A stretch of 39,133 nucleotides of DNA from a virus. Its lineage: Duplodnaviria > Caudoviricetes. The notes below the pieces were generated by a model. That model saw only the letters and a list, made by a program, of their open reading frames with translations. It did not search any database and was not told where the DNA came from. This document shows positions 1 to 39,133 of the stretch, one piece after another (the first letter of the stretch is position 1; each line of letters opens with the position of its first letter). The translations under genes and the position numbers were made by a program. The DNA lies in the IMG/VR virus record IMGVR_UViG_3300044738_000031, positions 1-39,133 of that record, one strand, 5' to 3'.

Positions 1-14
1 CTCGGCCGCTGCGG
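1..14. repeat. Terminal direct repeat, left copy (circular overlap)
   Basis: CTCGGCCGCTGCGG at 1-14 is identical to 39120-39133; an ORF crosses the join in frame. Confidence 0.9.
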
Positions 15-84
15 CCAAGTCCTGAAGGACGGCCTCGCGCTGAACGGCTGGCGGCAGGCTGGCGAGCACCACGGGATCGATCAT
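1..84 (-). CDS. 5' part of junction-spanning 86-aa protein, candidate SOS-induced antirepressor (continues at 39119-38943)
   Basis: ATG at 84-82, AGGAGG RBS at 96-91 (6-nt spacing); first 28 codons MIDPVVLASLPPAVQREAVLQDLAAAAE; absent from the linear ORF track. Confidence 0.7.
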   Translation of the reverse strand, partial: MIDPVVLASLPPAVQREAVLQDLAAAAE

Positions 85-100
85 CGAGGTCCTCCTGAAA

Positions 101-114
101 CGAACAGCTGTTCG
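101..114. promoter_or_regulatory. LexA (SOS) box
   Basis: CGAACAGCTGTTCG, perfect palindrome matching the Gram-positive/actinobacterial CGAAC-N4-GTTCG consensus, between a minus-strand -10 and the RBS. Confidence 0.85.
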
Positions 115-119
115 ACGGA

Positions 120-137
120 CGCAGGAAGATACCTGCG
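120..137 (-). promoter_or_regulatory. Putative -10 element (TATCTT, 131-126) flanked by inverted repeat CGCAGG/CCTGCG
   Basis: TANNNT hexamer just upstream of the SOS box; no clear -35. Confidence 0.5.
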
Positions 138-243
138 CGCTCGGACGGAAGCACAGGAACCCGATCACCCCAACGCTTAGCAGGTCAGGATCGTGTGCCG
201 ATTCTGTGCACAGATCGTGACGAGCTAGGGAGGCGGGAACGTA

Positions 244-909
244 ATGACCGGGCCAGAGTCCACCGGAAAGCCGAAGAAGAAGCTGAAGCGCTGGCACAAG
301 ATCGTGCTCGGCGTGGTGGGAGTGTTCATCGTCCTGGGCATCATCGGGGCGCTCGCCGGCGGCGGCGATGACGACGGCGACCAGGCCGGCAATGAGCCCA
401 GGCGGGAGCAGCCGGCCGGGAGCACGACCACCGAGCGGCAGCCCGCGCCGGCTGCCGAGAAGCCCGCTGCTGACGACGGCGACACTGGCCGGATGAGCCA
501 GACCGAGTGGGAGCAGGCCCGTGACGCCATCTTCGATGTCAACGGCGAGCTGCGCGACTACCGCCAGCAGGTCAGCGAGCGGTGCTCGCTCATGGTCCAG
601 GCCATGCAGGTGGCCGAGGCGCTCGACTGCATCGACGACGCCTACAGCGGGGTCGAGGACAAGATGGCGCTGGCGTACGCCGACCTCGATGACCTCCAGG
701 GTGACGTCGCCAAGAAGTGTCTGCGGGCGGTCGAGATCGCGACCAACGTCGTGAACACCCCGCTCTTCCAGGCGGCGGCCGCAAGCCACCGCGAGCTCGC
801 CTCGCTGGACGGCGACCGGATCACCGCCGGCCTGGCCGAGCTCAACACGCAGTCCGCTCGCTGGGGCACGGCCTCGGGCAACGTGCTGCAGCTCTGCGCC
901 CCGGAGTAG
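244..909 (+). CDS. Membrane-anchored protein with extracellular Cys-containing helical domain
   Basis: Lys-rich N-terminus, hydrophobic helix IVLGVVGVFIVLGIIGALA, low-complexity linker, four Cys. Confidence 0.8.
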   Translation: MTGPESTGKPKKKLKRWHKIVLGVVGVFIVLGIIGALAGGGDDDGDQAGNEPRREQPAGSTTTERQPAPAAEKPAADDGDTGRMSQTEWEQARDAIFDVNGELRDYRQQVSERCSLMVQAMQVAEALDCIDDAYSGVEDKMALAYADLDDLQGDVAKKCLRAVEIATNVVNTPLFQAAAASHRELASLDGDRITAGLAELNTQSARWGTASGNVLQLCAPE

Positions 910-916
910 CGCAGCA

Positions 917-1378
917 ATGACAATCCGTTCCCGCTGGCTCGCGCCGACAGCCGCACTGATCGCCGCCAGCGCCTTGGCGCTGGTGGGATGTGGCGGCGGC
1001 TCGCCGGCGCCGGCGGCGGCGCCGGCGCCGGCGGATGCTTCGACGGGACTCCTCGATGCGATCGGGCGAGCCGTCAGCGATCTGCCCACCCGCGCGGAGG
1101 GCCTCAGCCGGTCCGACGAGCAGCAGGCGGCCGTGCAGTGGCATCAGGCGGCCGACGTCATCGCGCGCGAGGGGCGCCAGGCCGACGCCCTCCCGTGCGC
1201 TGAGCAACTGGCACTGGACTTCGAGAGCTGGACGCGCTCGAGCGCCGCGGCGTTCGATGCCCTCGCGGCCGGCAACCGCGACTACGGGCTGGCGCTCCTG
1301 AGCGACGCCACCGCTGAGGCTGAGCGCATCCTCCCGACCGTCGCTCCGTGCCGCGCCCTGGTCGATCGCGCCGGATGA
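917..1378 (+). CDS. Lipoprotein
   Basis: Signal peptide ending in lipobox LVGC, followed by PAPA linker. Confidence 0.75.
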   Translation: MTIRSRWLAPTAALIAASALALVGCGGGSPAPAAAPAPADASTGLLDAIGRAVSDLPTRAEGLSRSDEQQAAVQWHQAADVIAREGRQADALPCAEQLALDFESWTRSSAAAFDALAAGNRDYGLALLSDATAEAERILPTVAPCRALVDRAG

Positions 1379-1404
1379 ACTAGACCACTGGTGTAACGTG
1401 GAGG

Positions 1405-1442
1405 TTGCAAACGCACGTCGTGTCCTGTAACCTCTAGGACAC
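1405..1442 (+). promoter_or_regulatory. hicAB promoter with overlapping operator
   Basis: TTGCAA (1405-1410), 17-nt spacer, TAACCT (1428-1433); inverted repeat GTGTCCT-N9-AGGACAC (1420-1442). Confidence 0.75.
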
Positions 1443-1443
1443 A

Positions 1444-1638
1444 ATGAAGGTCCGGGACGCCATCGACATCATCAGCCGCGACGGCTGGTACCAGGTGAAG
1501 CAGGTGGGCAGCCACCGCCAGTTCAAGCACCCGGTCAAGCCCGGCAAGGTGACGGTGGCGGGCAAGGCGAGCGCCGACCTGGCGCCGGGGACCCTGGCGA
1601 GCATCTTCCGCCAGGCACAGATCGAGAGGGAGGGGTGA
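1444..1638 (+). CDS. hicA: HicA family mRNA interferase toxin
   Basis: 64 aa; DGWYQVKQVGSHRQFKHP...GKVTV...DLAPGTLASIFRQA is the canonical HicA pattern. Confidence 0.95.
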   Translation: MKVRDAIDIISRDGWYQVKQVGSHRQFKHPVKPGKVTVAGKASADLAPGTLASIFRQAQIEREG

Positions 1639-1841
1639 TGCGGACGTTCGCGGTCGTGCTCGAGCAGACGGAGTCGGGCTACTCGGCCTACGTGCCGGAG
1701 CTGCCGGGCTGCGTCGCGGCCGGTGACACGCGTGACGAGACCCTGGAGCTCATGCGCGGCGCCATCGAGCTCCACCTCGAGGACGAGGACCCGGACGCGA
1801 CGGTGCCACCGCCGCCCGAGGTGCTCGCCCTGGTGGTCTAG
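1635..1841 (+). CDS. hicB: HicB family antitoxin, short form
   Basis: YSAYVPELPGCVAAGDTRDE motif; overlaps hicA stop. Confidence 0.93.
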   Translation: MMRTFAVVLEQTESGYSAYVPELPGCVAAGDTRDETLELMRGAIELHLEDEDPDATVPPPPEVLALVV

Positions 1842-1843
1842 CG

Positions 1844-2089
1844 GTGGGTCAGCCCGACCTGCGGTCTGTCGGCACCGCCGCGCGGCGCGCGGCCAAGCTG
1901 GCCGAGCGCGCCGAGGAGGCGATGCGCGAGCGCGACGAGCTGATCGTCGAGGCCATCCGCTCCGGCGCGACCACGCGCCAGATCGCCGAGGCGGCCGAGA
2001 TCAGCGCCGTGCAGGTGAGCCGGATCGGCCGGCGCGTCCTGCCGGCCCGGCCGCGGAGGGAACGCGTACAGGTGACTCCCAGTGGCTGA
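1844..2089 (+). CDS. Small HTH DNA-binding protein
   Basis: RDELIVEAIRSGATTRQIAEAAEISAVQVSRI helix-turn-helix pattern. Confidence 0.75.
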   Translation: MGQPDLRSVGTAARRAAKLAERAEEAMRERDELIVEAIRSGATTRQIAEAAEISAVQVSRIGRRVLPARPRRERVQVTPSG

Positions 2090-2504
2090 CAAGCCGAAGC
2101 CCACGAACCCCGGACTCATCGGCTACCTGACTGAGAACGCTGAGGGCATCGCCGAGGCCGGGGAGGCGCAGAAGGCCCGAACCCGAGAGGCTTTGGCACC
2201 GGCGCGCGCCCGCAGTGCGGGCTACAGGCCCGAGTACCGAGCGCCCGGTGCGCCGGCGCTGACGCCCACAGGCATGGAGTACCGGGTCGACGTGATGCGG
2301 TCATCGCTCGTCGGCGATCGCGTCGACGGAGCGGACCTCGAGGCGCTGCTGAACGCGCGGGCTCAGGAGGGCTGGATGCTGCGCCACATCGTCGAGACCG
2401 AGGTGAAGGGGCGTGTCGGGCCGGGGGGCACGATGGGCCTGCTCATCGTCTGGGAGCGCCGAGTTGCGACCGCGGAGCCGGACTCGGAGGCCACCTCGCC
2501 GTGA
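2082..2504 (+). CDS. DUF4177-like protein
   Basis: MEYRV...LEALLNARAQEGWML...LIVWER pattern; start uncertain. Confidence 0.7.
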   Translation: MADKPKPTNPGLIGYLTENAEGIAEAGEAQKARTREALAPARARSAGYRPEYRAPGAPALTPTGMEYRVDVMRSSLVGDRVDGADLEALLNARAQEGWMLRHIVETEVKGRVGPGGTMGLLIVWERRVATAEPDSEATSP

Positions 2505-2767
2505 ACCGCCCGACCGAGTTCGGGCCCGAGGCGCACATCGTTAAGGCATCGAGCGCGGCGGCCGCGCTGCGCTCCTCGGTGGCGCACTTCGGGCGGCGGA
2601 CCAACGCGGGCGGCTGGACCCCGATGTGCGGGGTCTACCCCGGCGAGTGGCGCCCGCTCGAGCCGGACGAGTTCCCGCACTACCGGACGTGCGAGCGGTG
2701 TCGCTACCAGGCGCCCGACGCCCCAGTGCTCGAGGGCGGCCAGGCTCCACAACGAGGAGGAGGGCCC

Positions 2768-3154
2768 ATGAGCCACCCGCTGCAGTGGAGCCGCGCCGAG
2801 ATCGGCTGGGCCCCTGACGGGGGCTACAGGATCACGATTCCGCACTGGCTCGAATCGCGCGCGACCTCCGAACTCGACGAGCGGCTAAAGAACGCTCTTC
2901 GCAAGGCGGGCGCCACCGGGTGGCACGTCGGCGAGCTCAAGCACGGCGAGATGACCAGGACCGGGGGCGGCGCCAACTTCGACCCCGGCTGGGTCGTCTT
3001 CGTCGGCGAGAGCTTGGCCGAGATCGACCCCGTCGCGCTCCGGGAGGCCGTCAACGCCGCCGCGCTCGAGGCCTCGCAGGTCGCGGCGAGGCTCGACGCC
3101 GATGCGCAGGCCCACGCGGACCGGATCTTCGACGTGTGGCGCGAGGCCGGGTGA
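2768..3154 (+). CDS. Hypothetical protein
   Basis: AGGAGG RBS before ATG 2768; frame is open from GTG 2501, so a longer form with CxxC is possible. Confidence 0.6.
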   Translation: MSHPLQWSRAEIGWAPDGGYRITIPHWLESRATSELDERLKNALRKAGATGWHVGELKHGEMTRTGGGANFDPGWVVFVGESLAEIDPVALREAVNAAALEASQVAARLDADAQAHADRIFDVWREAG

Positions 3155-3204
3155 CCACCGTGCACCCCACCCGGCGTCGGCCGGGAGCCCTACACTCGGG
3201 CGCG

Positions 3205-31155: not shown

Positions 31156-31362
31156 CGGACACCACCACGACACCACGGTCTTGCGCGGAGGCCGCTTCCT
31201 CGCACAGGCTGAAGCCCATGCCGCTGCGGAAACCGCTCACTCATGGGGCCGGGGAGGGAGAATCCCAGTACTGCCCATCTCCCCGGCGGGGTCGTCGTTA
31301 GCAGGGCTTTCCTCCGTGGAGGGCCGATCGGCGGCCCACCCGGACACCACCAGGACACCACG
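31156..31362 (+). other. attP: core about 31261-31277 with flanking arm-type sites
   Basis: AATCCCAGTACTGCCCA resembles the T-loop-to-acceptor 3' end of a tRNA (Val-like); 22-bp direct repeats at 31156-31177 and 31341-31362. Confidence 0.75.
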
Positions 31363-32394
31363 CCGAAGCGCCGCCAGGCGCCAGGCGGGCTCGTCGAGCA
31401 GCACGTGCGAGTAGGTGTCGTGCGTGGTCGACTGCTTGGCGTGGCCCGAGATCTGGATCACCAGGGGCATCGGGATCCCGGCCAGCACCATCAGGCTGAT
31501 GTGCCGGTGGCGCAGCTCGTGCGGGCTGTAGTGGGCGACCCCGGCGTTGCGGCAGGCGATCGCCAGCGCGCGACGCACGCCTGAGTCGGTCAGCCCGCCG
31601 AGCACCCGCCGCCCGGGTGCGCGGTCCTCGAGCGGGCAGGTGTCGGCGATGCGCTCCGGCCAGTCCTCGACGAGCGGGATGAAGCGCCGCGCGGCGTTGG
31701 TCTTGCCGCCCCAGGGAACCCGCAGGCGCCGGCCGGCGAGGTCGACGTCGCCCCAGGTGAGCGCCACGGCCTCGGAGATCCGCATGCCGGTCCGCTCGAT
31801 CAGCTCGAGGGCGAAGCGGTACCTGGACGAGACCTCGCGCGCGATCGCCATGAAGTCGGCGTAGCTCGGCGGGGCGACCTCGGCGTCGTCGAGCTGCGGG
31901 AGCTTCACGGTGGGGTGGCGCGCCGGATTCGGCAGGGGGTAGGGCAGGTCGTCGAGCGCCTGGCGGACGACCGACACGTAGGACGCCACCGTCGCCGGCG
32001 CAAGCTCCTGGGCGATCGCCCTGACCCAGGCCTGGACGTGCGCCGGTCGGATCGTCAGCACGTCGCGCTCGCCCAGCTCGCCGAGGCGCTTGCGGGCCTT
32101 GCGGTACTGCCTGCGCGCGGAGTCGCCGACGTCGATGCGCCCGGTCTCCATCTCCTCGATCGCCACGGCCAGGGTCCGGACGTCCGCCGGCGCCTCGAGC
32201 GCGTGCAGGTCCGGCACGCGCATGGCCGCCAGCTCGCCGGCCACCCAGCGCCGGCGCGCCTCGGCCTCCCGCTTGGTCTCGAAGGTGCCGCCCGAGAGCG
32301 GGCGCGCCTCACGCCCGCCGAGCCGGTAGCGCACCTGCCAGTGGACCTCGCCGGCGGCCGTCGTGCGCTTCACGATGAAGACGCTCGGGCTCAC
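31237..32394 (-). CDS. int: Tyrosine integrase
   Basis: TGMRISEA, KT, HELRH, SGH, THDTY catalytic motifs. Confidence 0.95.
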   Translation of the reverse strand: MSPSVFIVKRTTAAGEVHWQVRYRLGGREARPLSGGTFETKREAEARRRWVAGELAAMRVPDLHALEAPADVRTLAVAIEEMETGRIDVGDSARRQYRKARKRLGELGERDVLTIRPAHVQAWVRAIAQELAPATVASYVSVVRQALDDLPYPLPNPARHPTVKLPQLDDAEVAPPSYADFMAIAREVSSRYRFALELIERTGMRISEAVALTWGDVDLAGRRLRVPWGGKTNAARRFIPLVEDWPERIADTCPLEDRAPGRRVLGGLTDSGVRRALAIACRNAGVAHYSPHELRHRHISLMVLAGIPMPLVIQISGHAKQSTTHDTYSHVLLDEPAWRLAALRRGVLVVSGWAADRPSTEESPANDDPAGEMGSTGILPPRPHE

Positions 32395-36624: not shown

Positions 36625-37601
36625 CCCGGGTCCTCGGGCCGGCGCTTGGTGTCCTCCCAGGCCTGGTCGATCACCTGCTGCTCGGGCTCGGCCGCCGGCT
36701 CGGCCTCGGCGACCTCGCCGGTCTTCGCGTCGACCACTTCGCCCTCGAGCGCCTCGCCCTCGGCGTGCTCCGGGCCACGCAGCTCAGCCATCACCGCGGC
36801 GTACTTGGCCTCGTCGTCGAAGCCGGACGGGCGCTCGATGCCGTGGTCGGCCTTGAGCCGGGCCGTCAGCACCTCGAGGTCGATGCCGGCGGTGGCCGCC
36901 GCGGCCCGGACCGCCTCCCAGCGCTCGCGCCACGGCTCCGCCGGCGGCGCGACCAGGCGGCCCTGGACCTCGATGATGTCCGAGGCGTCCATCTCCTCCT
37001 GGGTCACCAGGCCAGAGATCGAGAAGGCCCGGCGCAGCGCCATCGCCTCGGCGACCTTCACGATCATCGCCGAGGGGTACTTGGCCCACGGGCTCCAGCT
37101 CTGGTTCGCCGCCCGGCCGTACTCGGCCCAGGGCGCGAAGAAGAAGGCCGGCAGGTCGCGGTCGCGGCGGTAGACGAGCGCGTAGGCACCGATCAGCGTC
37201 CCCCGCTTGGCCCCGTAGGAGTGCTCGACGTCGAGGCCCTTGCGGGCGAACTGGTCGCCCTCGCGCACAACGTCGGACGTCATGCCGGAGTACGCCGGGT
37301 GACGGTTGGCGATCGCCAGGTAGCCGTCGCGGCTGGTCTGGATCATCGCCGGCTTGGGCTCACCCGACTTGTCGAGCTTGCGCGAGCCGTCGTCGTTCAG
37401 CTCGCAGATGCACCAGATCTCCTTGGCGAACGGGTCGAGCTGGTAGCGGTTGGCCAGCTCGAGGAACATCGCCAGCTCGACGTCGCTCGCGCCGCGGGCG
37501 ACCGTGTCCTTCACGACGCGCAGCTGCTCGGGGCTCATGCGCTCGATGGCGCTGACCGCGCCCTGGGTCTGCGGCCGGCGCTCGAGGGCGGTGGTGCTCA
37601 T
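36621..37601 (-). CDS. bet: Bet/RecT-family single-strand annealing recombinase
   Basis: FLELANRYQLDPFAKEIW, RDGYLAIANR, WAKYPSAMIVKVAEAMALRRAF, EEM. Confidence 0.9.
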   Translation of the reverse strand: MSTTALERRPQTQGAVSAIERMSPEQLRVVKDTVARGASDVELAMFLELANRYQLDPFAKEIWCICELNDDGSRKLDKSGEPKPAMIQTSRDGYLAIANRHPAYSGMTSDVVREGDQFARKGLDVEHSYGAKRGTLIGAYALVYRRDRDLPAFFFAPWAEYGRAANQSWSPWAKYPSAMIVKVAEAMALRRAFSISGLVTQEEMDASDIIEVQGRLVAPPAEPWRERWEAVRAAAATAGIDLEVLTARLKADHGIERPSGFDDEAKYAAVMAELRGPEHAEGEALEGEVVDAKTGEVAEAEPAAEPEQQVIDQAWEDTKRRPEDPG

Positions 37602-37846
37602 CGGTCCTCCGTGGTCGTGATGGTGGCTCCGCTCGCCGGCGGCGCCTCGAGGGGGAGCAACTCGATGCCGACCACGTCGGCGCACCGCCGGCAGCACGGG
37701 ACCTCGACGCCGCCCGGGCCCGCGCCGTAGCCCTCGGCCAGGCGGTCGCACGCCAGGAACCATCGGCAGAGGAGGCCGGCCGACATCCGGGCGCGCCGCT
37801 CGGCCACGTGGGCCGGCCAATTCTGGGCGCCGGCCACCGGCGTCAC
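37598..37846 (-). CDS. Small Cys-rich protein
   Basis: CRWFLAC...CCRRC. Confidence 0.55.
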   Translation of the reverse strand: MTPVAGAQNWPAHVAERRARMSAGLLCRWFLACDRLAEGYGAGPGGVEVPCCRRCADVVGIELLPLEAPPASGATITTTEDR

Positions 37847-38076
37847 GCTGCTTCCTCCACCCCGCCGGCGAGCAGCTGCTCGAGTTGGATCCAGGACCAC
37901 TCGGGTGCGCAGCCGGACGGGTCGGGCGGCGCGCTGATCTCGGCACCGCAGCGGCCACAGGTCCACTCGGCGTCGGGCAGCAGGACCGGCTTGCGCCATG
38001 CGGTCCAGTGGTGCTCGCCGGAGGGCGAGGCCGGGCAAGACGTCCGAAGCACGCCCACACGGGCTCGGGCGGGCAT
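37843..38076 (-). CDS. Small zinc-binding protein
   Basis: CP...HHW...CGRCG. Confidence 0.55.
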   Translation of the reverse strand: MPARARVGVLRTSCPASPSGEHHWTAWRKPVLLPDAEWTCGRCGAEISAPPDPSGCAPEWSWIQLEQLLAGGVEEAA

Positions 38077-38315
38077 CAGGCCGCCTGCCTGACACGACGC
38101 AGGGCCGGCTCGGCGCGAAGCGCTCTCAGCGCCACGTCCAGGCTGCCATGGGGAGCGATGAGCGCATAGGCCGCGCGCAGTAGGCGCGCCTGGACTCGCA
38201 GCTCCTGCTGCTGGCGGACGTTGGAATCGTAGGCCGAGAGCACGCCCTGCTCGGCCTCGGCGAGCGCCAATGCGGCGGCGTCGAGCAGGCCGTCGGCCCG
38301 CGAAGGGGTGGCCAT
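38076..38315 (-). CDS. Hypothetical helical protein
   Basis: RBS-like AGGA; TGATG overlap. Confidence 0.55.
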   Translation of the reverse strand: MATPSRADGLLDAAALALAEAEQGVLSAYDSNVRQQQELRVQARLLRAAYALIAPHGSLDVALRALRAEPALRRVRQAA

Positions 38316-38320
38316 CCTGG

Positions 38321-38638
38321 CTAACCTCCAAGTGTGGCCCCGACGGGGCGCGCTTCACCGGCCAAGGGAAGCGCCTCGTCGGGGCGATCTGTGTTTTCGG
38401 GAGCGCTCTCCGACGCTCCGCTACCGTCGCCCTCGTCATGGACGACGAACAGCGAGTCGAGCGAGACCTGGTAGAGGTCGGCGAGTGCGACGGCGTAGCG
38501 GAGCTGCGGCTCTCGGCCGCTCTCCCAGGCGTAGACGCTGCCCCGATGGACGCCGATTCGGTCGGCGACCGCCTCGGGCCGGAGGCCGGCCTCAAGGCGG
38601 AGGTTCAACGCGATCTGGCCACTCCACTGTCGCGACAT
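38321..38638 (-). CDS. Cro-like XRE HTH protein
   Basis: VADRIGVHRGSVYAWESGREP...ALADLYQVSLDSL; divergent from repressor. Confidence 0.85.
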   Translation of the reverse strand: MSRQWSGQIALNLRLEAGLRPEAVADRIGVHRGSVYAWESGREPQLRYAVALADLYQVSLDSLFVVHDEGDGSGASESAPENTDRPDEALPLAGEARPVGATLGG

Positions 38639-38700
38639 CGCAACAGAGTATTGTCGCGACCTCGCGACACGTCAAGGGCTACTGTCGCGAATATGCGAGA
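38628..38700. promoter_or_regulatory. Immunity switch: three operators and divergent promoters
   Basis: TGTCGCGA-N2-TCGCGACA consensus at 38628-45, 38652-69 (perfect), 38683-700; TACTGT (+, 38680-85); TACTCT (-, 38650-45); TTGACG (-, 38675-70). Confidence 0.85.
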
Positions 38701-39103
38701 GCGAGAGCGTCCGCCGGATGTGTTCTACGAGCGCTTCGGTGCCTTGCTCGAGCAGGCCCAGGAGCGGGGCGTGACCGTGGTCGAGATCGCCCGCGCAACC
38801 GGCATCGACCGCTCGCGCCTGTACCGCTGGAAGGACCGTGTGGACGGGCCATCGGGATCCAGCCTGGCCGGGATCGCCGATTACTTCGGCGTAACGATGG
38901 ACTACCTTTGGGGCCGCTCCGACGAGCCCGGCACCCGGTTCGCTACTGGACCACCTTCAGGAGGGGGGCCCGAGGAGGGCCCGAAGCGCTCATCCGAGCG
39001 AGCTTCGGCAGCGCTCGAAGATTTGGGCGAGGCGGCCCGGCGAGAGCGCGAAGCTCGGCCGCGGCGACGGCGAGGCCAGGGTGAAGAGGATCCGGCTCCG
39101 TGA
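38693..39103 (+). CDS. CI-like immunity repressor (XRE HTH, no peptidase domain)
   Basis: EIARATGIDRSRLYRWK...LAGIADYFGVTMDYLWGRSD, then a low-complexity tail. Confidence 0.88.
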   Translation: MRERERPPDVFYERFGALLEQAQERGVTVVEIARATGIDRSRLYRWKDRVDGPSGSSLAGIADYFGVTMDYLWGRSDEPGTRFATGPPSGGGPEEGPKRSSERASAALEDLGEAARREREARPRRRRGQGEEDPAP

Positions 39104-39119
39104 TGACGGCGAGCGCCCG
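38943..39119 (-). CDS. 3' part of junction-spanning 86-aa protein, antisense to repressor
   Basis: In frame with 84-1; RALAVITEPDPLHPGLAVAAAELRALAG...LLKVVQ, TAG at 38945-38943. Confidence 0.6.
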   Translation of the reverse strand, partial: RALAVITEPDPLHPGLAVAAAELRALAGPPRPNLRALPKLARMSASGPPRAPLLKVVQ

Positions 39120-39133
39120 CTCGGCCGCTGCGG
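39120..39133. repeat. Terminal direct repeat, right copy
   Basis: Identical to 1-14. Confidence 0.9.

What the first reader, a model, noticed from the sequence alone, without database searches (positions are those of the whole stretch)
1..137. LexA-controlled gene hidden across the genome join, running antisense into the repressor
Seen: after joining the ends at the 14-bp overlap, the minus strand reads -10 (TATCTT, 131-126), perfect SOS box CGAACAGCTGTTCG (114-101), AGGAGG (96-91), ATG (84), then an 86-aa ORF ending at 38943. It overlaps the last 161 nt of the repressor gene on the opposite strand. Known: phages with non-cleavable repressors can be induced through LexA-repressed antirepressors (coliphage 186 Tum, Salmonella Gifsy). 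Inference: this is an SOS induction module that could act both as a protein antirepressor of a family I do not recognise and as a convergent antisense transcript silencing the repressor mRNA.
Basis: partly seen in the sequence, partly recalled or inferred. Interest (0 to 1): 0.88.

Follow-up and report, generated by a model that had tools for sequence, protein, structure and literature searches.

The report
Damage-switch gene overlapping actinophage repressor
A soil phage has a conserved small gene, split by the assembly break, that runs backwards over the end of its repressor-type gene behind sequence matches to two host DNA-damage regulators; it likely makes a protein that disables the repressor and wakes the dormant phage, a known strategy carried out here by a protein family with no database match.

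Summary
Four independent proteins (89-97 aa) align with the joined 86-codon ORF across the join, sharing 15-17 of the 24 pre-join residues; of 33 overlaps tested, only 14 bp fits. Against a second phage the ORF frame is under purifying selection (dN/dS 0.42; repressor-tail frame 1.45), and the overlap keeps the same stop. The SOS box is the only perfect one in 39 kb but is absent upstream of the one homolog with DNA. Both phages share a match to the PafBC damage promoter (lead from an earlier scan note). The repressor is a 136-aa HTH protein with no peptidase domain. The layout is known: AimX-AimC of Bacillus phage phi106, where the protein acts and the antisense RNA does not. This scan reported similar layouts before (29 keyword hits), one in an actinophage with both motifs. 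Best reading (0.55): a damage-induced protein antirepressor of a new family; binding is untested. Antisense silencing as the main action is unlikely (0.12). New variant of a known kind; interest 0.48.

The parts
1..84 (-). 5' part (codons 1-28) of the small conserved gene; ATG at 84
   Evidence: 15-17 of the first 24 residues identical in four homologs, all starting MIDP
38943..39119 (-). 3' part of the same gene after the join; stop at 38945-38943; the last 161 nt overlap the repressor gene
   Evidence: dN/dS 0.42 against phage G001
1..14 (.). 14-bp terminal overlap, left copy
   Evidence: only this overlap length restores homology
39120..39133 (.). 14-bp terminal overlap, right copy
91..96 (-). 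AGGAGG ribosome-binding site, 6 nt before the ATG
   Evidence: sequence; the homolog in G001 also has AGGAGG before its GTG start
101..114 (.). Perfect Gram-positive-type SOS box CGAAC-N4-GTTCG between the -10 and the RBS (predicted LexA operator)
   Evidence: 1 found, 0.04 expected; fits the Streptomyces consensus tCGAAC-N4-GNNCGa; absent in G001
126..147 (-). Predicted PafBC-type promoter: cGTCcg (147-142), 10 nt, TATCTT -10 (131-126)
   Evidence: all five upper-case (>50% conserved) positions of tGTCgg(N10)tA(N3)T met here and upstream of the G001 homolog; chance 0.02-0.03 per 60-nt slot
38693..39103 (+). CI-type repressor candidate, 136 aa: HTH (about 15-80) plus a low-complexity tail; no S24 peptidase domain
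   Evidence: homologs P0004/P0005 73-74% identical
38626..38690 (.). Four TGTCGCGA-type operator-like repeats (about 38628, 38652, 38662, 38683) between cro and repressor, around a leftward promoter TTGACG-17-AATACT (38675-38647)
38321..38638 (-). Divergent cro-like HTH gene heading the early lytic arm, on the same strand as the small gene

Best explanation
The conserved small gene across the join is likely a DNA-damage-induced antirepressor: its promoter is predicted to be switched on by host PafBC and, in this phage, also held off by LexA, and its predicted helical-hairpin protein would bind and inactivate the repressor-type protein, which has no self-cleavage domain and whose gene it overlaps, so the cro arm would be released and the prophage induced. 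SHOWN: the gene, its family, selection on its reading frame, the overlap in two phages, the two motif matches, a repressor with no peptidase domain, and operator-like repeats over the cro promoter. INFERRED: that the host is an actinobacterium with PafBC and this LexA specificity, that the promoter fires on damage, that the protein binds the repressor, and that this is the induction route. Convergent transcription may help in cis but is probably secondary.
For: Real protein: four homologs span the join. pS 0.51 versus pN 0.29, Fisher P 0.002, one pair of phages. AlphaFold model of homolog P0008: residues 1-55 at pLDDT 93-96, a short helix plus a two-helix hairpin, then a disordered tail. Fixed slot: in G001 (terminase 67% identical) the homolog is again co-oriented with the lytic genes and divergent from an accessory gene. 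There the opposite-strand frame of the same phase is open for 47 codons to a TGA at the identical position, while the other two frames stop earlier. Damage signals: unique perfect SOS box. PafBC motif upstream in 2 of 2 phages, against 0 of 46 other RBS-led starts in the window and 2 of 51 in G001. Need for a trigger: no S24 domain on the repressor, and no ImmA-type protease or Bro/ANT/Rha antirepressor among the hits shown for 135 window frames. Precedent: phi106 AimX lies behind a LexA site, overlaps the end of non-cleavable aimC in antisense and forms a heterodimer with it. Terminase and portal relatives are almost all actinophages.
Against: The function rests on position and analogy alone. 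The SOS box is absent in G001. The PafBC motif is short. A plain shuffle test of the shared upstream stretch was not significant (P 0.07-0.11 in the proximal 80 nt, up to 0.5 over the whole gap), and I looked for the motif only after reading an earlier scan note. The G001 -10 has G at the first position. The host is unidentified, so PafBC and LexA specificity are assumed. G001 ends inside the gene, so its overlapping partner is not shown to be a repressor. The repressor-tail frame shows no purifying selection between these two phages (1.45; 18 of 47 residues identical), which fits poorly with a conserved tail as the target; against that, the last 26 residues are identical in two closer repressor homologs. 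An open frame of about this length in this phase arises in 28% of 166 control segments. A codon model scores the ORF below background (-16.6) and prefers the exact shadow frame in the non-overlapping part (+3.5 versus -6.2). Only 135 of the 234 listed frames were scanned for other triggers.
Confidence: 0.55

Rival explanations
1. A damage-induced pro-lytic or host-modulating protein whose target is not the overlapped repressor, for example host LexA/RecA, the repressor of a co-resident prophage, or cell division.
For: Selection acts on the small protein but not on the repressor tail. The family stays 46-76% identical, while G001 shares detectable protein similarity with the window only in the packaging genes. 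Small phage proteins that act on the SOS system exist (GIL01 gp7, Listeria AriS; search listings only), and antirepressors can act in trans on non-cognate repressors (PMC3121763 abstract).
Against: It leaves the phage without an identified induction route. It does not explain the fixed overlapping slot, which in the tested Bacillus systems marks the cognate antirepressor.
Confidence: 0.25
2. The main effect is in cis: damage-induced convergent transcription silences repressor mRNA or reads on into cro, and the protein is secondary.
For: The promoter points into the repressor gene. No minus-strand terminator-like site was found in 37500-39133 (this scan is weak for GC-rich hosts). The overlap is long (161 nt) and recurs in G001.
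Against: Purifying selection on the protein and a conserved start and RBS. In phi106 and phiW23, recoding the overlap did nothing and start-to-stop alleles that kept the transcript lost activity. The leader folds no better than shuffles (z -0.62).
Confidence: 0.12
3. An ordinary accessory or early gene that is not damage-regulated. The SOS box is recent, incidental or serves the plus-strand lysogenic transcript, and the PafBC match is chance.
For: Box absent in G001; upstream similarity not significant by shuffling; host unknown.
Against: The unique perfect box lies exactly between the -10 and the RBS. No plus-strand TANNNT lies in 85-243. The PafBC motif is retained at the same gene in two diverged phages.
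Confidence: 0.08

Closest known systems
AimX-AimC-AimL of Bacillus phage phi106 family (Kabel et al., bioRxiv 10.1101/2025.11.23.689978; parts 1 and 3 of 7 and passages read)
   Same: LexA site just upstream of a small ORF; ORF antisense to and overlapping the 3' end of a short (80-140 aa) non-cleavable HTH repressor; divergent cro-like gene; many relatives lack the LexA site; antirepressor predicted mostly helical.
   Different: No AimR/AimP hit here. The ORF is 86-97 aa (AimX 29-80 aa) and the overlap 161 nt (30 bp in phi106). The host type is actinobacterial, with a predicted PafBC promoter. The repressor tail is low-complexity and unselected between two phages, whereas AimC has a folded C-terminal oligomerisation domain. 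AimX sequences are in supplements I could not open, so homology was not tested directly.
GfoA/GfhA of Salmonella Gifsy-1/-3 (PMC3121763; abstract and outline read); Tum of coliphage 186 (recalled, not read)
   Same: LexA-repressed small protein that inactivates a non-cleavable repressor by binding.
   Different: [quoted passage not shown]
Sar-SroF of SPbeta-like phages (bioRxiv 10.1101/2025.11.27.690993; passages read)
   Same: Gram-positive SOS box upstream of a small antirepressor of a non-cleavable repressor.
   Different: SroF has an integrase-like fold and Sar acts partly as a DNA mimic; 'antisense' does not occur in the main text; there the SOS box is conserved in all relatives analysed.
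PafBC (sigma-adaptation) promoters of mycobacteria (PMC8635444; passages read)
   Same: GTC -26 element, 10-nt spacer, -10 hexamer, no -35.
   Different: Described for host DNA-repair genes; here on a phage gene, with 2 of 4 (window) and 1 of 4 (G001) of the weakly conserved positions matched.

Membership tests
LexA-controlled antirepressor module (Tum/GfoA/AimX/Sar type) | Repressor without an autocleavage domain | tested here: met
   136 aa, HTH hits only in Pfam, PHROGs and NCBIfam
LexA-controlled antirepressor module (Tum/GfoA/AimX/Sar type) | SOS box in the promoter/leader of a small gene | tested here: met
   101-114, unique in the window
LexA-controlled antirepressor module (Tum/GfoA/AimX/Sar type) | SOS box conserved among relatives | tested here: not met
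   0 of 1 homolog loci with upstream DNA
LexA-controlled antirepressor module (Tum/GfoA/AimX/Sar type) | Small gene encodes a real protein | tested here: met
   four homologs, dN/dS 0.42
LexA-controlled antirepressor module (Tum/GfoA/AimX/Sar type) | Protein binds the repressor and releases it from DNA | not testable with these tools
   needs a binding experiment with the cognate pair
LexA-controlled antirepressor module (Tum/GfoA/AimX/Sar type) | LexA binding and damage-induced expression | not testable with these tools
   needs EMSA or a reporter
Extended arbitrium (AimR-AimP-AimX-AimC-AimL) | aimR/aimP upstream of the small ORF | tested here: not met
   the neighbours are a Sie-like membrane protein (244-909), a 153-aa unknown and HicAB
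Extended arbitrium (AimR-AimP-AimX-AimC-AimL) | Small ORF antisense to and overlapping the repressor 3' end, with divergent cro | tested here: met
Extended arbitrium (AimR-AimP-AimX-AimC-AimL) | Antirepressor takes the place of the repressor's C-terminal oligomerisation domain | tested here: inconclusive
   a 12-16-residue likeness of helix 2 to the repressor tail: P 0.003-0.007 for the window's repressor but 0.08-0.18 for P0004; profile comparison probability 0.1%
Named antirepressor protein families (Tum, GfoA, Ant/KilA, Bro-N, Rha, Sar, AimX) | Sequence or fold homology | tested here: inconclusive
   no family hit in PHROGs, NCBIfam or PADLOC; in Pfam only a below-cutoff UBM hit on the 28-aa piece; fold searches cannot exclude families for a helical hairpin
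PafBC-dependent promoter | GTC-N13-A-N3-T (upper-case positions of tGTCgg-N10-tA-N3-T), no -35 | tested here: met
   2 of 2 phages
PafBC-dependent promoter | Host encodes PafBC and activation depends on it | not testable with these tools
   host genome not identified

The most novel reading that the evidence does not exclude
A new antirepressor family whose gene is overprinted on the tail of the repressor it inactivates, wired as an AND gate to both actinobacterial damage pathways (PafBC activation plus LexA release) in this phage and to PafBC alone in a relative. This would be RecA/LexA-independent prophage induction by a protein antirepressor, with the LexA operator gained or lost as a tuning module.
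Probability: 0.25. Interest if true: 0.75.

Novelty: new variant of a known kind. Interest (0 to 1): 0.48.

Why it matters
Antirepressors are small, diverse and hard to find, and how actinobacterial prophages with non-cleavable repressors sense DNA damage is poorly described. My searches (open-access library only) listed no paper on a PafBC-driven phage antirepressor or on this family. The locus gives a compact circuit (two short genes, one promoter, four operator-like repeats) that can be rebuilt in a laboratory actinobacterium. It suggests the damage input (LexA versus PafBC) can be swapped while the effector is kept. It also shows a class of regulatory genes that gene callers drop because of antisense overlap or contig breaks. 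The overall logic is already established in Bacillus and Salmonella phages, which caps the surprise.

Tried and rejected
Direct read support for the join was not obtained: in run X1 (possibly the source) one contig ends at 39118 and another starts at 21, and no listed contig bridges them; a hole proves nothing. No RNA holder listed.

Complex prediction of the window's repressor with homolog P0008, a non-cognate stand-in, gave 'no answer' (score 0.02, mark 0.32). It is evidence neither for nor against binding.

Fold searches gave no Foldseek hit at E <= 0.001 in PDB or BFVD; the best VIA Z was 6.5, generic helical hairpins. PDB sequence search gave one weak hit (E 0.42). The ESM Atlas gave no usable hit twice.

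First searches with the 62-residue piece found nothing; only the full HMMER scan did. No tblastn match among 50,697 cultured-phage records. No relative in genome contigs or metagenome contigs.

Dropped as false hits: P0009 (repeat protein), L206, L211 and L212. The SOS-RBS-ATG pattern scan (122 loci of about 230) showed no relative of this ORF by eye. The 80 generic HTH loci (33-48% identity over the HTH) were not analysed further.

Helix mimicry of the repressor tail was not supported across homologs.

The 14-bp overlap as an att core was rejected by inference: the integrase and an att-like stretch lie 8 kb away with phage genes on both sides, and the gene is intact across the join. Host identification failed: no kin are drawn for a virus record. 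Rfam and ARAGORN found no RNA gene in the window.

Full report
Setting. The window is a whole IMG/VR virus record of 39,133 nt, 73.5% GC, classed as linear and 52% complete. It encodes a siphovirus-type gene set on the minus strand: cro-like HTH, RecT, tyrosine integrase, replication initiator, terminase, portal, capsid, tail and endolysin. A short plus-strand block (Sie-like protein, HicAB, unknowns) lies at the left end and an HTH gene at the right end. Terminase and portal relatives among cultured phages are almost all actinophages, at about 36-41% identity for the best hits. The host is thus probably an actinobacterium (inference); it was not identified.

Observation. The repressor-type ORF starts at 38693. 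The box is the only perfect CGAAC-N4-GTTCG in the window (0.04 expected; 4 of 100 shuffles reach one). It fits the S. venezuelae LexA consensus tCGAAC-N4-GNNCGa (10.1101/2022.03.28.486056, passages); four other places in the window or its reverse fit that looser form besides the two readings of this box at three further sites (one search lists 20562, 30312 and 12447).

The join and the gene are real. A HMMER scan of 1.84 billion representatives with only the 62 post-join residues gave 2 hits: a repeat protein that I dropped, and P0008 (89 aa, E 6.7e-9). Its N-terminus matches the pre-join 28 residues at 19 positions without gaps from Met1. A profile search among 4,384 candidates added P0012, P0013 and P0014. 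All four start MIDP and share 15-17 of the first 24 residues. Of 33 trial overlap lengths only 14 nt restores the alignment (192 versus at most 77.5). A second phage, G001, encodes a frame identical to the first 81 residues of P0012, so it is not a fifth homolog. Against it the ORF frame shows pS 0.51, pN 0.29, dN/dS 0.42 (Fisher P 0.002), while the repressor-tail frame gives 1.45 and the exact shadow frame 1.36 (one pair only). Against the gene: a codon model trained on this phage scores the ORF below background and prefers the shadow frame in the non-overlapping part. That shadow frame has a stop in G001. The family has no hit in PHROGs, NCBIfam or PADLOC and only a below-cutoff Pfam hit on the 28-residue piece. 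AlphaFold on a six-row alignment gives a confident short helix plus two-helix hairpin for residues 1-55 (pLDDT 93-96) and a disordered tail, which carries two conserved LRxLP/PLLxxV motifs.

The overlap recurs. In G001 the gene sits in the same slot: co-oriented with the lytic genes and divergent from an accessory gene, here a PH/SHOCT protein. The contig ends inside the gene. On the opposite strand the same-phase frame is open for 47 codons to a TGA at the identical position and is 18 of 47 identical to the window's repressor tail; the other two frames stop earlier. An open frame of about this length is not rare in that phase (28% of 166 control segments), and the G001 partner is not shown to be a repressor. 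Two closer repressor homologs keep the last 26 residues unchanged while the linker diverges; whether they preserve the antisense protein was inconclusive (P 0.07).

Regulation. G001 has no SOS box upstream of the gene and no perfect box in its 36 kb. The published motif is tGTCgg(N10)tA(N3)T, with a -26 element replacing the -35 (PMC8635444, passages). The window reads cGTCcg-N10-TATCTT at 147-126, and G001 reads cGTCcg-N10-GATCGT just upstream of its RBS. Both meet all five upper-case positions. The chance per 60-nt slot is 0.02-0.03 in each genome. With one lower-case position also required, 0 of 46 other RBS-led starts in the window and 2 of 51 in G001 carry it. A motif-blind shuffle test of the shared stretch is not significant (P 0.07-0.11), so this is suggestive. 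It would explain the missing -35 and the missing box: PafBC as the shared damage input, LexA as an added brake in this phage.

Target. The 136-aa protein has only an HTH domain. It faces a cro-like gene across four TGTCGCGA-type repeats and a TTGACG-17-AATACT promoter, the anatomy of a CI-type repressor (inference). No self-cleavage domain, ImmA-type protease or named antirepressor domain appeared among the hits shown for 135 of the 234 listed frames (best five families per frame). A damage-induced small protein beside such a repressor is the usual solution. A likeness between helix 2 and the repressor tail, first seen by eye, scored P 0.003-0.007 for this repressor but 0.08-0.18 for P0004, and hhalign found nothing, so the binding mode is open.

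Comparison. The closest tested system is AimX-AimC of Bacillus phage phi106: LexA site, small ORF, antisense overlap with the end of a short non-cleavable repressor, and divergent cro-like aimL. AimX forms a heterodimer that blocks DNA binding. Recoding the overlap had no effect and start-to-stop alleles lost function, and many relatives lack the LexA site (10.1101/2025.11.23.689978, parts 1 and 3 of 7 and passages; supplements closed, so AimX sequences were not compared). Gifsy antirepressors (PMC3121763, abstract) and Sar (10.1101/2025.11.27.690993, passages) share the logic; no overlap is described in what I read. Tum of phage 186 is recalled, not read. The locus likely works like AimX-AimC but is not an arbitrium member: no AimR/AimP hit. 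A keyword look-up of this scan's earlier notes gave 29 findings, of which 8 were shown and describe the same or a similar layout in other genomes. One actinophage note has both PafBC and LexA motifs. None matched this protein by sequence. These notes are unchecked and are not counted as support.

Verdict. Observation confirmed; interpretation partly supported. Damage-induced protein antirepressor 0.55; damage-induced protein with another target 0.25; mainly antisense or read-through 0.12; not damage-regulated 0.08. New variant of a known kind: a new protein family, a long overprint and a probable PafBC input on a known design. Interest 0.48.

Noticed in passing
window 31260-31277: A stretch resembling a tRNA 3' end (resemblance recalled; ARAGORN and Rfam found no tRNA) lies inside the last codons of the integrase ORF (31237-32394, minus), with phage genes on both sides: likely attP in the middle of the lytic arm. 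G001 begins with a similar tRNA-like stretch (L208 about 45-95).
   Followed up: partly
window 3175-3196 (+): The best PafBC-motif match in the window (3 of 4 weak positions plus all strong ones) lies just after the plus-strand accessory block and points into the end of the late minus-strand arm.
   Followed up: no
window 244-3154 (+): Plus-strand block downstream of the repressor: Sie-like membrane protein, 153-aa unknown, HicA-HicB pair, small HTH-like and DUF4177 genes. No plus-strand -10 hexamer in 85-243, so it may be read through from the repressor promoter, head-on to the damage promoter.
   Followed up: partly
window 38321-38638 (-): The cro-like gene appears nearly leaderless (-10 ends at 38647, ATG at 38638). 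It has a 40-residue tail with low GC3 (0.66), and a terminator-like hairpin on the plus strand lies inside it (38372-38386).
   Followed up: no
window 114-123 and 144-153; 125-142; 203-214: A 10-nt direct repeat 30 nt apart flanks the promoter. The -10 hexamer lies between inverted CGCAGG/CCTGCG arms, and a 12-bp palindrome lies at 203-214. Roles unknown.
   Followed up: no
L205:5001-5245 (end of G001): The second phage's contig also ends inside this same gene, so two assemblies break at this locus; cause unknown.
   Followed up: no
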